A stretch of 64,000 nucleotides of DNA from an uncultured Chloroflexia bacterium (GTDB lineage: Bacteria > Chloroflexota > Limnocylindria > Limnocylindrales > CSP1-4). The notes beneath the pieces are model-generated. The model was given only the letters and a program-made list of their open reading frames with translations. It ran no database searches and was not told the DNA's origin. The translations under genes were made by a program, and so were the position numbers. The stretch covers positions 128,001 through 192,000 of the forward strand of contig CAVRGP010000002.1 of assembly GCA_963720755.1 (NCBI GenBank). Direction: 5' to 3'. Below, one piece after another: positions 28,179 to 30,791 of the stretch; position 1 is the first letter of the stretch, and each line of letters starts with the position of its first letter.

Positions 28179-30791
28179 CTACTCGTGATGACTGGGTGCG
28201 ACAGCCGCCCCGCCGTGTTCGTGCCCGTCGCCGCGAGCCTGCCCGTGCCCGTTGCCGTTGGTCGCGACGCCCGTCACCGTCGGCGGCAGCATCGGCAACA
28301 TCCGCGCCGTGTCGATGAGCCGGCCCTGCTCGGCCGCCCTCGTCGCCCAGTCACGCTCTCGCCGGATGTAGGTGACTTCCGTTTCGCGCTCCACCGCGGC
28401 GATGGCCATCAGGTCGATCATCGGCTGCGACCGGCTGGTGTGTGAGAGCTCGAAGTCCGCGCCATCGCGGAGCGCGTCGTACGGGCAGGCATCGACGCAG
28501 ATGCCGCACAGGATGCAGCGACTCTCGTCGACGTCGTACTTCTGCAGGACCCGTGGCTTGGGCATCAGGGCGCCGGTCGGGCAGGTCTCCGCACAGCGGC
28601 CGCAGGAGACGCACGGGGTGTCGTTGAGGCTCATGTCGAGCGGCGTGGTGACGAGCGTGTCGAAGCCGATCCGCATGAAGTCGTAGCAGGCCGCGCCGAC
28701 GACCTCCGAGCAGACCTGGGCGCATCGCCCGCAGTCGATGCAGCGTGACGGTTCACGCAGGATGAAGGCGTGGGAGTCGTCCCGGATGTAGTCGTGGTTG
28801 ACGCCCGTGAACCGGTTCTCCGTGACACTCCGGAAGCCCGCGCCCGCGTGATGTTGCGGTTCGAGTGTGGGCAGGGTCGTCCCGTACTCGATCCCGAGCC
28901 GGCGCAGGTCGCAGAAGCCGATCGCTTCGCAGGTGCACTGGAGGCAACGGGTGGACTCGGCGACGGCGTCCTCGCGGGTGTACGGCAGCTCGTACTCGAC
29001 GTAGGAATGGTTCCGTTCCTCGGCCTCGAGCGCGCTCAGCCGGTAGCGCGGCGTCTTGGCTTCGCTGGTGAACGGCACGATCGACAGGAATTCAGGCTGC
29101 GGTTCAGCCAGGGTCTGCCGGGTCCGGATGGCCGACAGGTCGAGGCCCTTGAGATAGGCATCGACCGCATAGGCGGACCGTCGACCTTCGGCGATGGCCT
29201 GGACCACCGTCGCCGCGCCGATCCGGACGTCGCCGGTACCGAAGACACCGGGACGGCCCGTCTCGAACGTCACGGCATCGGCCTTGAGACGGCGCTGCCG
29301 GGTCGCCTCCGGTCCCTCCGAGCCAGGCCCGATCCAGGTCAGATCCGGGCCCTGACCGATGGCCAGCAGGACGCGATCGCAGGGGATCGTGAACTCCGTG
29401 CCCGGCGCCGGTTCCGGGCGTCTCCGGCCCGAGGCATCCGGCGCGCCGAGGGCCATCCGGATGAACTCGACGCCGGTCACCGTCCCGTCGTCGTCCGTGA
29501 TGACCCGGACCGGACCCGCCTGGAAGATGGCGGTGACACCTTCCTCGATCGCTTCGTGGACCTCGTTGGAGGCCGGCATGTCCTTCATGTCGCGGCGATA
29601 GACGAGGGTGACCTCGGCGGCGCCCTGGCGGATCGATGTCCGTGAGCAGTCCATCGAGGTGAACCCGCCACCGATCACGACGACCCGCTTGCCGGCGTGA
29701 TCCGGATACGGGAGCCCGAGCGTCGCGGTCCGCAGGTACTCCAGTCCGTCCAGGCACTCGGCCGCGTCCTCGCCCGGGATCCCGAGCTTGTTGGTGTCGT
29801 AGCAGCCGATCGCGACGACGACTGCATCGAACCCCTGGAAGGTCAGGTCGTCGAGCGTGAAATCCGTTCCCAGGCCGGCGTTGCAGACGATCTTGCCGCC
29901 CAGCCGGGTCACCGACTCGTACTCCGCCTCGAGGACCTCGACCTTCGGCAGGCGATATTGCGGGATCCCGTACCGGAGCATGCCGCCCGGGGCGGGGTCG
30001 CGCTCGAACACGGTCACGTCGTGACCGGCCAGGAGCAGGTAGAAGGCGGCCGACATCCCGGCCGGGCCGGAGCCGATGACCGCGGCTCGACGACCGGTCG
30101 GGGCCTGCCGTTCGAACGGCAGCGGTGGATCGACATCCTCGTCGAGCATCGCCTTGAGGACCTGATCGCCGGCATAGCGGTGGCTGTCGCGGATGGCGAT
30201 CGCCTCGTCCACCTCGTCACGCCGGCAGTGCTCCTCGCACGGGGCAGGACAGACCCGCCCGAGCACGCTCGGGAACGGGATGGTCCGCTTGAAGATCCGG
30301 GTGCTCTCGCGCCAGTCGGCCTCGGCGTTGGCCTTCAGGAACCCGGGGATATCGATATGGCTCGGGCACTTGTTCTGGCAGGGCGGCAGGCAGTAGGCGT
30401 TGTGGTCGGAGAAGATCAGCTCGAGGTTCGTCCGGCGGAGGCGCCGAAGCTCGTCGGTCTGTGTCTGGACCTTCATCTCGGGCTCGCACGTGCGCGAGCA
30501 GGAGATCGGCGGATGCTCCTCGCCTTCGACCTCGACCACGCACATCCGGCACGCCCCGAAGCCGGGCAACTTCGGCTCGTAGCACAGCGTCGGGATCTCG
30601 ATCCCGTTGTCGCGGCAAACCTCCAGGATCGTCTGGCCCTCGAAGCCCTCGACGACCCGGCCGTCGACTTCGATCCGGATGGGCAGCGAGGATTGCGGGC
30701 GCTGCGGCGACTGCGTATCGAGCAGGCGCTCGGCCAGCGACTCCGGCTCGATCGCGGAAGTGGCGTCGGGGCGTGTCATCAGGTCAGCCAT
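28179..30791 (-). CDS. Fe-S flavoprotein: NuoG-like N-terminal clusters + GltD/SfrB-type FAD/NAD(P)H domain + C-terminal half of NuoI
   Basis: 2Fe-2S IPTLC..[74 protein letters not shown]; final [23 protein letters not shown]..DFEL. Confidence 0.85.
   Translation of the reverse strand: [870 protein letters not shown]

What the first reader, a model, noticed from the sequence alone, without database searches (positions are those of the whole stretch)
28179..30791. NuoG replaced by a GltD/SfrB-type flavoprotein: candidate NADPH:quinone proton-pumping complex
Seen: the NuoG-like 2Fe-2S domain and the His ligand of the N5-type cluster ([12 protein letters not shown]) are followed by a complete GltD-like FAD module ([30 protein letters not shown], VYRR). 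The remaining N5-type cysteines (RCLQCTC..C) and a 2x[4Fe-4S] domain come after it. There is no molybdopterin-like C-terminal domain. Known: GltD/NfnL/SfrB family members with the YRR motif typically use NADP(H). Inference: this complex oxidises NADPH, or reduces NADP+ by reverse electron flow, rather than NADH.
Basis: partly seen in the sequence, partly recalled or inferred. Interest (0 to 1): 0.82.

Follow-up and report, generated by a model that had tools for sequence, protein, structure and literature searches.

The report
Complex I with built-in NADPH module
This gene encodes an iron-sulfur flavoprotein of the kind found in soluble NADPH/NADH transhydrogenases, and it sits in a soil bacterium's only respiratory complex I in place of NuoG while also carrying half of the subunit NuoI, so the proton pump probably takes electrons from NADPH as well as NADH.

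Summary
Window 28179-30791 (-) encodes an 870-aa protein, here called G'. It has a NuoG/HydA-type 2Fe-2S domain and an H-x3-C motif, then a complete GltD-type FAD/NAD(P)H module, then the remaining N5-type cysteines and a two-cluster ferredoxin-like domain. It has no molybdopterin domain.

G' is a close homologue of NfnA/StnC, the NADPH-oxidising subunit of Nfn-Bfu transhydrogenases (PDB 9bov_A, E 3e-160; 8oh5_C, E 7e-139). An NADPH site is therefore likely. "Rather than NADH" is not supported, because a NuoF-like FMN subunit with the NADH-contact residues lies directly upstream.

- The last ~45 conserved residues of G' are the C-terminal half of NuoI.
- The N-terminal half of NuoI is fused to a cysteine-free NuoE remnant two genes upstream.
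- The E'-F-G' block therefore sits inside a split nuoI of an 11-subunit-type operon: A-B-C-D-H-I'E'-F-G'I''-J-K-L-M-N.

This is the genome's only complex I. The layout is conserved across the organism's class (Limnocylindria-type MAGs). It also occurs, dispersed over three loci, in cultured Ktedonobacteria such as Thermogemmatispora.

Seven literature searches found no description of it. Earlier reports of this scan found the same design in other genomes.

The parts
28179..30791 (-). G'I'': NfnA/StnC-type iron-sulfur flavoprotein that takes the place of NuoG and ends in the C-terminal half of NuoI (870 aa)
30456..30683 (-). NuoG/HydA-type [2Fe-2S] domain (N1b equivalent), followed by the H-x3-C start of the N5-type motif
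   Evidence: Pfam Fer2_4; invariant Cys in A2
29184..30392 (-). Inserted GltD/NfnL-type module: two [4Fe-4S] sites (Fer4_20), FAD fold (GSGPAG) and NAD(P)H fold (GGGFTSMD ... VYRR)
28566..28949 (-). RCLQC-x-C-x5-C (end of the permuted GltD cluster motif plus the rest of the N5-type motif) and a two-cluster ferredoxin-like domain ([11 protein letters not shown] ... [12 protein letters not shown])
   Evidence: Pfam Fer4_Nqo3; alignment with the canonical StnC homologue L032
28416..28553 (-). C-terminal half of NuoI: one CxxCxxCxxxCP motif followed by FELS
   Evidence: TIGR01971 positions 71-116; BLASTP against a canonical NuoI
32129..32788 (-). I'E': N-terminal half of NuoI fused to the N-terminal helical domain of a NuoE/NfnC-like protein; no cysteine after the single ferredoxin motif (219 aa)
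32561..32755 (-). NuoI N-half core (TIGR01971 positions 1-64) with the motif CETCFQCAQACP
30799..32124 (-). NuoF-like FMN/NADH subunit. It is closer to Bfu B subunits than to complex I NuoF and lacks their extra cluster domains. The second Cys of the N3 motif is replaced by Thr.
36603..36959 (-). nuoA
35911..36600 (-). nuoB (start not fixed)
   Evidence: TIGR01957 218.9 bits against cut-off 142.7
35360..35950 (-). nuoC (start not fixed)
34131..35351 (-). nuoD, the only NuoD found in the genome
32788..34134 (-). nuoH, directly after nuoD as in 11-subunit-type operons
22153..28169 (-). nuoJ (27576-28169), nuoK (27262-27570), nuoL (25295-27265), nuoM (23649-25289), nuoN (22153-23652)

Best explanation
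The gene encodes the largest peripheral-arm subunit of a rebuilt respiratory complex I. Three genes (E', F, G') related to the soluble NfnABC/StnABC (Bfu-family) transhydrogenases lie inside a split nuoI gene of an otherwise 11-subunit-type nuo operon. G' is an NfnA/StnC homologue. In it the dead-end formate-dehydrogenase-like domain is replaced by the back half of NuoI. The front half of NuoI is fused to a NuoE remnant that has no cluster. Shown from sequence: the domain order, the homologies, the invariant cluster ligands, the gene order and its conservation, and the lack of any other NuoG, NuoI or NuoD in the genome. Inferred: NADPH reduces the FAD in G', and electrons pass through the two GltD clusters into the N5/N4-type clusters. 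NADH reduces the FMN in F and enters through the N3 and N1b equivalents. Both streams then pass through an N6a/N6b pair built from cysteines of two polypeptides to N2 in NuoB and on to menaquinone, with proton pumping by NuoH and NuoJ-N. The enzyme would thus be a two-flavin NAD(P)H:quinone oxidoreductase. It would not bifurcate, because the cluster sites that bifurcating relatives need are absent.
For: Homology: G' residues 60-792 match Csac NfnA 9bov_A (538 bits, E 3e-160), S. ovata StnC 8oh5_C (468 bits) and archaeal NfnA 9n5u_A (458 bits). Plain NfnB scores 264 bits, GltD 223 bits, and the best complex I NuoG chain 83 bits. StnC has the same layout: 2Fe-2S at 1-101, GltD at 102-565, then NuoG clusters. 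Its path is FAD-C7-C6-C5-C4-C3 to FMN (PMC10482914, section 8 read). NADPH site: YRR is kept in 11 of 12 rows of A2 and in 5 of 5 printed solved relatives; StnC R239 is also kept. F: it is nearer to Bfu B subunits (HydB 335, NfnB 333, StnB 324 bits) than to complex I NuoF (271, 233, 221 bits), and its FMN and NADH residues are kept. Split NuoI: TIGR01971 positions 1-64 hit I'E' and positions 71-116 hit the G' tail. No intact NuoI was found in the genome, which is 93.6% complete. A canonical NuoI aligns at residues 3-67 to I' and at 52-121 to the G' tail. I' has a single CxxCxxCxxxCP motif, invariant in 10 of 10 rows. Folding G' 640-835 with I' 1-105 gave ipSAE 0.50 in 3 of 3 runs against a best control of 0.00, verdict 'weak support'. 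That mark was reached by 58 of 80 solved complexes and 2 of 110 mismatches, but scores of 0.60 or under came from only 7 of those 80 solved complexes and from both mismatches. The runs agree in at least 83% of contacts and the partner pLDDT is at least 67. NuoI structures are solved, so the pass may reflect memory. Context: NuoB, D, H, K, L, M and N pass NCBIfam cut-offs. There is one NuoD in the genome. Gene junctions are tight or overlapping. Conservation: the same operon order is found in 3 of 3 class-level loci examined. A B-I'E'-F-G'I'' cluster is found in 7 of 7 loci from four other families.
Against: No biochemistry exists for any member, so NADPH use rests on homology and on a motif. 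In the window and in both other class-level rows (3 of 3) the second Cys of the N3 motif in F is Thr or Ala, so the NADH branch may be altered or weak in this lineage. The complex prediction reached only 'weak support' and gave no contacts. BLASTP can also align both motifs of a canonical NuoI to the G' tail alone, so the motif pairing is not settled. No coordinates were available, so no cluster-to-cluster distance was measured. No RNA data were found.
Confidence: 0.6

Rival explanations
1. NADPH-only complex I: the FMN subunit is a structural relic, and electrons enter only at the FAD of G'.
For: The second Cys of the N3 motif is lost in 3 of 3 Limnocylindria-class rows. NuoE has lost its 2Fe-2S cluster in 10 of 10 rows. 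F scores below the NuoF cut-off (342 against 558.65 bits).
Against: The FMN loop, the GEET motif and 4 of 5 NADH-contact residues are kept. The Ktedonobacteria-type rows keep all N3 cysteines (4 of 4 in A3). F is conserved in every locus examined.
Confidence: 0.12
2. The main role is redox balancing, not respiration. One version is a membrane-anchored NADPH:NAD+ transhydrogenase working through the shared Fe-S wire. The other is NADP+ reduction driven by proton-motive force through reverse electron flow from menaquinol.
For: Stn also catalyses plain NADPH:NAD+ transfer (PMC10482914, passage). PntB was not found in this genome, which is 93.6% complete. The two flavins sit on one predicted wire.
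Against: This is the only complex I in the genome, so forward respiration is the simpler main role. No energetic data exist. Soluble transhydrogenase genes were not searched for.
Confidence: 0.15
3. An electron-confurcating 'Nuo-Bfu'-like enzyme that also needs ferredoxin, as predicted for Geobacter-type Nuo-Bfu.
For: E', F and G' are nearest to Bfu-family subunits. Membrane-bound Nuo-Bfu enzymes have been proposed (PMC9304861, passages).
Against: F lacks the N- and C-terminal cluster domains. It aligns only to 158-573 of the 630-aa HydB, and the canonical StnB in L032 has the extra Fer4 domain. E' has no cysteine for the C1/N1a cluster. Non-bifurcating relatives are said to lack exactly these sites (PMC11829005, passage).
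Confidence: 0.04
4. The GltD module is a relic that binds no nucleotide, or it uses NADH.
For: The C-terminal domain of StnC shows that dead domains can persist in this family.
Against: GxGxxG, GGGxT..D, YRR and the cluster cysteines are invariant or nearly so across rows only 40-47% identical overall.
Confidence: 0.05
5. E', F and G' form a separate soluble enzyme that merely shares the operon.
For: In Ktedonobacteria-type genomes the B-I'E'-F-G'I'' genes stand apart from the membrane-arm genes.
Against: They carry the only NuoI halves of this genome, and in those other genomes the partner A-C-D-H cluster lacks nuoB and nuoI.
Confidence: 0.04

Closest known systems
NfnA / StnC, the BfuA subunit of the soluble NfnABC = StnABC transhydrogenases (C. 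saccharolyticus 9bov, S. ovata 8oh5, archaeal 9n5u)
   Same: Same order: 2Fe-2S domain, H-x3-C, inserted GltD FAD/NADPH module, RCLxC-x-C-x5-C, two-cluster ferredoxin-like domain. 38-45% identity over ~730 residues. The partners are NuoF-like and NuoE-like proteins encoded next to it.
   Different: The ~480-residue FdhF-like domain (clusters C1/C2, tetramer contacts) is replaced by half of NuoI. The B partner lacks the extra cluster domains and the C partner lacks its 2Fe-2S cluster, so bifurcation is not expected. The genes sit in a nuo operon. The residue at the position of StnC K170 is His.
Canonical 14-subunit complex I (NuoA-N; Thermus Nqo1-14)
   Same: NuoA, B, C, D, H, J, K, L, M and N are ordinary; seven pass NCBIfam cut-offs. 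There is an FMN subunit and N1b-, N4- and N5-type sites.
   Different: No NuoG with a molybdopterin-like fold. NuoI is in two halves on two proteins. No N1a cluster. An extra FAD and two extra clusters. The EFG block lies after nuoH inside nuoI, not between nuoD and nuoH.
Predicted 'Nuo-Bfu' of Geobacter, Deferribacteres, Planctomycetes and Nitrospirae (Schut et al. 2022, PMC9304861; passages seen)
   Same: A Bfu-type module is proposed to replace NuoEFG in a proton-pumping, menaquinone-reducing Nuo.
   Different: From the passages: that module is described as a bifurcating BfuABC that takes NADH and ferredoxin, in the middle of a 14-subunit Nuo-Bfu (A-N) cluster. The passages mention neither a GltD/NADPH domain nor a split NuoI. 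That paper selected BfuB by a ferredoxin-type domain that the F protein here lacks.
Mbx-like complexes in which a GltD-related flavoprotein replaces the NuoI homologue (Degli Esposti 2015, PMC4758237; passage seen)
   Same: A GltD-type NAD(P)H site attached to a membrane complex of the complex I superfamily.
   Different: Mbx-like enzymes are hydrogenase-related and contain Mrp-type subunits. They have no NuoF, no quinone-type NuoD operon of this kind, and no NuoG-type insertion.

Membership tests
NfnA/StnC (BfuA of Nfn-Bfu) | N-terminal HydA/NuoG-type 2Fe-2S domain, with a GltD/NfnL FAD-NADPH domain inserted after H-x3-C | tested here: met
   Pfam order. Full-length alignments to 9bov_A and 8oh5_C. 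Aligns with the canonical StnC homologue L032.
NfnA/StnC (BfuA of Nfn-Bfu) | C-terminal FdhF-like molybdopterin-fold domain with clusters C1/C2 (needed for the Stn tetramer, PMC10482914 section 8) | tested here: not met
   No Molybdopterin or Molybdop_Fe4S4 hit. The alignment diverges from L032 right after CPTG(A/S)L.
NfnA/StnC (BfuA of Nfn-Bfu) | Partners are a full BfuB (extra N- and C-terminal cluster domains) and a BfuC with 2Fe-2S | tested here: not met
   F has only Complex1_51K and NADH_4Fe-4S, whereas the StnB in L032 also has Fer4 domains. E' has no cysteine.
NfnA/StnC (BfuA of Nfn-Bfu) | NADPH-dependent reduction of NAD+ and ferredoxin | not testable with these tools
   Needs an enzyme assay.
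NuoG (TIGR01973) | Score over the curated cut-off; N-terminal Fe-S domains plus a molybdopterin-like domain | tested here: not met
   88.2 bits against a cut-off of 470.05, with only positions 1-98 matched. No NuoG over the cut-off in the genome.
NuoI (TIGR01971) | Two CxxCxxCxxxCP motifs on one ~160-220 aa polypeptide | tested here: not met
   Positions 1-64 lie on I'E' (50 bits) and positions 71-116 on G' (45 bits), both below the cut-off of 113.
GltD, glutamate synthase small subunit (TIGR01317/TIGR01318) | Score over the curated cut-off as a stand-alone ~480 aa protein | tested here: not met
   228.5 against 447.7 bits and 300.7 against 482.95 bits; embedded in a larger Fe-S protein. Pairing with GltB was not tested.
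Respiratory complex I (Nuo) | Q-module and membrane-arm subunits A, B, C, D, H, J, K, L, M and N in one operon | tested here: met
   Pfam. NCBIfam cut-offs passed by B, D, H, K, L, M and N.
Nuo-Bfu (Schut 2022) | Nuo operon whose EFG block is a bifurcation-competent BfuABC | tested here: not met
   The extra cluster domains of BfuB and the 2Fe-2S of BfuC are absent.

The most novel reading that the evidence does not exclude
An 11-subunit complex I recruited its electron-input module on its own, by inserting a trimmed Nfn/Stn transhydrogenase into the loop between the two ferredoxin motifs of NuoI. The N6a/N6b clusters would then be shared between two polypeptides that also staple the module on. 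The wire would reach NuoI through the cluster branch that in StnC, formate dehydrogenases and hydrogenases leads to the catalytic domain (the 'C2' side), not through N5 as in canonical complex I. N5 would serve instead as the NADPH entry. This would be a second, structurally different way of coupling pyridine nucleotides to the proton pump, with two flavins and two substrates.
Probability: 0.35. Interest if true: 0.85.

Novelty: new variant of a known kind. Interest (0 to 1): 0.75.

Why it matters
- **Input module.** The NADH-input module of complex I is usually treated as a single, fixed invention. Here a different module sits in the only complex I of an abundant soil and freshwater lineage. 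It is related to soluble NADPH/NADH transhydrogenases and is attached through a split core subunit.
- **Physiology, if the NADPH site works.** These bacteria could respire NADPH directly, or make it by reverse flow. That changes how their redox budget should be modelled.
- **An old puzzle.** It may explain why Chloroflexi genomes were scored as having 13 of 14 nuo genes, 'missing only NuoG' (PMC4453560, passage). The replacement is annotated only as 'FAD-dependent oxidoreductase'.
- **Testability.** Cultured Ktedonobacteria carry the same module, so the idea can be tested at the bench.

Tried and rejected
**Expression.** No RNA holder was listed for window 27500-33000. All 20 runs listed were DNA, mostly soil metagenomes.

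**Organism names.**
The 80 loci kept were all close relatives. They are labelled Limnocylindrales/Limnocylindria, Chloroflexota/Chloroflexi, Chloroflexia, Thermomicrobiales and Anaerolineaceae, and one is labelled Patescibacteria. This gave no names for distant carriers.
- The listing of cluster members gave no organism names for P0260, P0382, P0251 or P0312.

**Regex label in the trees.** My pattern for a NuoI-like tail flagged 4 of 150 representatives. One of them, P0382, turned out to be a different fusion with a TPP-binding domain. P0260 is unresolved. The 'cI' label in the trees is therefore impure for these two rows.

**Direction of evolution.** The unrooted tree cannot say which form came first. 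I built it from 90 of the 145 rows I had assembled, after dropping 17 representatives under 640 aa and every second long row (55 rows). Rooting on 10 GltD-only proteins nests the complex I type inside Stn-type rows, but only with FastTree SH-like supports of 74, 90, 95 and 87. This is suggestive, not shown.

**Alternative motif pairing.** I considered that the last two motifs of G' alone form a whole NuoI core. I judged this less likely because the first of them pairs with [11 protein letters not shown], as it does in StnC. It is not excluded.

**Literature.** Seven searches found no description of this design. The supplements of PMC4758237, PMC4453560 and PMC9304861 show operon variants and clade lists that I could not see.

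**Call errors.** Searches failed on term format. Searches failed on reading frame.
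Full report
**What is at the coordinates**

The window has about 68% G+C. An ORF runs on the minus strand from 30857 to 28179. The nuoF-like gene upstream ends with TGA at 30799-30801. It is followed by GAGG, five bases and then ATG at 30791.

Pfam finds these domains, in 892-aa ORF numbering:
- Fer2_4 at 59-134
- a 17-residue fragment of the NuoG N5 region at 141-157
- Fer4_20 at 156-235
- Pyr_redox_2 at 258-558
- Fer4_Nqo3 at 699-764
- ferredoxin motifs to 797

No molybdopterin family is among the hits.

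**What the protein is**

The best NCBIfam model is PRK12814, a 2Fe-2S plus GltD architecture (540.6 bits, below its cut-off of 916). NuoG, GltD and NuoI models all score far below their cut-offs.

Against solved structures the protein matches the following over residues 60-792:

| Chain | Protein | Bits |
|---|---|---|
| 9bov_A | C. saccharolyticus NfnA | 538 (E 3e-160) |
| 8oh5_C | Sporomusa ovata StnC | 468 |
| 9n5u_A | archaeal NfnA | 458 |
| 4ylf_B | plain NfnB | 264 |
| 2vdc_G | GltD | 223 |
| 7q5y_A | best complex I NuoG chain | 83 |

I read section 8 of the StnC paper (PMC10482914). It describes exactly this build: a 2Fe-2S domain at residues 1-101, a GltD domain at 102-565, then NuoG-type clusters. 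The electron path runs FAD-C7-C6-C5-C4-C3 to the FMN of StnB. A C-terminal FdhF-like domain holds clusters C1 and C2 as a non-functional side branch.

Stand-alone GltD-like proteins from the phylum begin with ...EA.RCL.C. In G' that string lies after the flavin domain (ESTRCLQC). The inserted module is therefore circularly permuted, so that both of its ends meet at one cluster next to the interrupted N5-type motif. This is my reading of the sequences, not a tool result.

The NAD(P)H fold ends in [11 protein letters not shown]. The same YRR...MPA pattern is in all 5 of 5 solved relatives printed. Of these, StnC (PMC10482914, passages and section 8) and Csac NfnABC (PMC11829005, search listing) are stated to oxidise NADPH. 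For the archaeal NfnA, NfnB and NfnL I rely on the PDB names and on recall. YRR is kept in 11 of 12 rows of alignment A2; one Ktedonobacteria-type paralogue has YYR. That basic residues at this spot bind the 2'-phosphate is recalled textbook knowledge.

StnC R239 is conserved. The position of StnC K170, which is Glu in the two NfnB/NfnL rows, is His here.

**What surrounds it**

On the same strand lie nuoA, B, C, D, H, then a 219-aa gene, then a NuoF-like gene, then the target, then nuoJ, K, L, M and N. NuoB, D, H, K, L, M and N pass NCBIfam cut-offs. NuoF (342 against 558.65 bits) does not.

A genome-wide search with the NuoI model finds no intact NuoI in the assembly, which has 15 contigs and is 93.6% complete. 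Positions 1-64 of the model hit the 219-aa gene, and positions 71-116 hit the tail of the target.

The 219-aa protein (I'E') has two parts:
- It starts like NuoI. Residues 8-72 align with residues 3-67 of a canonical NuoI from another Chloroflexota genome at 45% identity. It holds one CxxCxxCxxxCP motif.
- It then continues as the N-terminal helical domain of NfnC/StnA/NuoE, best matched by 9bov_C and 8oh5_A. There is no cysteine at all in this part, so there is no N1a-type cluster.

The tail of the target, [33 protein letters not shown], aligns with the second half of the canonical NuoI.

Compared with an 11-subunit-type order (A-B-C-D-H-I-J-K-L-M-N), the E'-F-G' block lies inside nuoI and is fused to both halves. 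Gene junctions are tight: the nuoH stop and the I'E' start overlap, a GGAGG precedes the F start, and 7 nt separate F from G'.

The genome has a single NuoD and no NuoG above the cut-off. This is its only complex I. PntB was not found.

**The F subunit**

It is nearer to Bfu-family B subunits than to complex I NuoF:

| Group | Chain | Bits |
|---|---|---|
| Bfu B subunits | HydB | 335 |
| Bfu B subunits | Csac NfnB | 333 |
| Bfu B subunits | StnB | 324 |
| Complex I NuoF | mycobacterial | 271 |
| Complex I NuoF | Aquifex | 233 |
| Complex I NuoF | Thermus | 221 |

It aligns only to the core of the Bfu subunits (158-573 of the 630-aa HydB), so it lacks their extra cluster domains.

The FMN loop and GEET are kept. 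Of the five NADH contacts named for Csac NfnB (Gly-156, Phe-159, Lys-164, Glu-274, Phe-294; PMC11829005, passage), four are identical and Phe-294 is His. I mapped this by hand on the alignment.

One oddity: the N3 motif reads CGKTIPC, where relatives have CGKC.PC. The second Cys is Thr or Ala in 3 of 3 Limnocylindria-class rows. It is kept in the 4 Ktedonobacteria-type rows, in the StnB of L032 and in a canonical NuoF.

**Conservation and distribution**

The best 120 of more than 4000 homologues are 84-94% identical. Where named, they are 'FAD-dependent oxidoreductase' from Chloroflexota or Candidatus Limnocylindrales MAGs.

In 201 genomes sampled from the phylum, near-full-length matches occur as follows:
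- all sampled genomes of the window's own class: f1 7 of 7, f2 1 of 1, f3 12 of 12 (two of these in pieces)
- 19 genomes of four other families (f8, f23, f27, f45), at 45-49% identity

The overall tally of 141 of 201 is mostly GltD-part matches. It includes two unpublished genomes, on which nothing here rests.

I examined gene order in 14 loci by tblastn:
- The 3 class-level loci keep the full order.
- 7 loci of the other four families hold a compact B-I'E'-F-G'I'' cluster flanked by unrelated genes.
- One locus is a canonical StnABC cluster, with a full NuoE-like protein, a NuoF with Fer4 domains and a 1228-aa StnC with a molybdopterin domain.
- Three loci have only StnC- or GltD-like genes.

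The compact-cluster genomes also hold three other gene sets:
- a canonical nuoA-N operon with intact NuoI
- a separate A-C-D-H cluster that lacks nuoB and nuoI (3 of 3 loci)
- a second set of three antiporter-like subunits elsewhere (3 of 3 genomes)

These genomes thus encode the variant complex I at three loci beside a normal one.

The G' protein of one such genome is 100% identical to a protein that NCBI names from Thermogemmatispora carboxidivorans. Close relatives are named from Ktedonobacter, Dictyobacter and Tengunoibacter. Cultured carriers therefore exist.

**Origin**

Among the 150 best 50%-identity representatives, the nearest non-self relatives are mostly 1000-1400-aa StnC/NfnA-type proteins at 36-46% identity.

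In a FastTree of 90 rows, the Limnocylindria-type and Ktedonobacteria-type G' proteins form one clade with support 99. The rows I dropped are listed under Tried and rejected.

On the GltD core, rooted with 10 GltD-only proteins, that clade is nested among Stn-type rows. The supports along the path are 74, 90, 95 and 87. This points to capture of a soluble Nfn/Stn-type module by an 11-subunit complex I. The supports are modest and the method is quick.

**How it most likely works**

Shown: there are four CxxCxxCxxx(C/CP) motifs after the flavin module and on I'. All 16 cysteines are invariant. I' has only one motif, so it must pair with a motif on another chain.

Folding G' 640-835 with I' 1-105 gave ipSAE 0.50 in three runs against 0.00 for the best of three controls. 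The tool calls this weak support. Its calibration counts are in the For line. The pass may also reflect memory of solved NuoI structures.

Inferred:
- NADPH enters at the FAD and NADH enters at the FMN.
- The two streams meet on the N4/N5-type clusters.
- They leave through an inter-subunit N6a/N6b pair to N2 and menaquinone.

The NuoI half replaces the FdhF-like domain right after the second ferredoxin-like motif, and the GltD module occupies the N5 side. The wire may therefore reach NuoI through the branch that is a dead end in StnC. This is a hypothesis. No coordinates were available to test it.

Bifurcation is unlikely, because the sites that bifurcating relatives need are absent.

**Known or new**

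Seven full-text searches found no description of this design. The nearest ideas in print, all seen as passages, are:
- the predicted 'Nuo-Bfu' of Geobacter and others (PMC9304861)
- GltD-bearing Mbx-like operons (PMC4758237)
- the remark that many Chloroflexi genomes have 13 of 14 nuo genes, 'missing only NuoG' (PMC4453560)
- the orphan nuoF and missing nuoG noted in Chloroflexus aurantiacus (PMC3150298); I did not test whether that case is the same

Supplements were closed and may hold relevant operon figures.

After reaching this reading I looked at the scan's own notes. At least 17 earlier findings in at least 14 other genomes describe the same layout and the same reading. They are AI notes on other DNA, not independent evidence.

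**Verdict**

This is a new variant of known kinds: complex I and the Nfn/Stn module. Interest 0.75.

Noticed in passing
window 30799-32124 (-), about residues 343-358 of the NuoF-like protein: The N3 cluster motif reads FCAGEACGKTIPCRIG. The second Cys of CxxCxxC is Thr here and Thr or Ala in the two other class-level relatives. It is kept in the Ktedonobacteria-type, StnB and canonical NuoF rows. An extra Cys five residues upstream is present in 2 of the 3.
   Followed up: partly
window 37318-39129 (-), just upstream of nuoA: An ORF on the same strand carries a Methyltransf_28 domain (PF02636, E 8e-54). From recall, this is the family of the mitochondrial complex I assembly factor NDUFAF7/MidA.
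   Followed up: no
L122-L125, L026 (genome G111): Ktedonobacteria-type genomes encode the variant complex I at three separate loci (A-C-D-H; B-I'E'-F-G'I''; a second L/M/N set) beside a canonical nuoA-N operon.
   Followed up: partly
L037:7419-9827 and L037:10062-12470 (genome G030): Two tandem copies of the G' gene follow one B-I'E'-F set. One copy has YYR instead of YRR.
   Followed up: no
alignment A1: L035:6514-7359, L036:6575-7396 compared with window 32129-32788: Class-level relatives keep a longer NuoE part with a thioredoxin-like stretch and a CxCxxC remnant, but no second Cys pair. In the window that domain is deleted outright.
   Followed up: partly
protein P0382 (1049 aa, metagenome representative): The nearest outgroup of the complex I-type clade is a 2Fe-2S/GltD/ferredoxin protein fused to a TPP-binding domain (PF02775). 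This is a different fusion on the same branch.
   Followed up: no
protein P0033 (1075 aa): An 89%-identical relative is listed with a NuoJ domain (PF00499) at its end. Either G'I'' is fused to NuoJ or a stop codon was missed.
   Followed up: no
G000:C11:71164-72429 (-), outside the window: A NuoG/formate-dehydrogenase-like frame elsewhere in the genome has one in-frame TGA. This could be a selenocysteine codon or a break.
   Followed up: no
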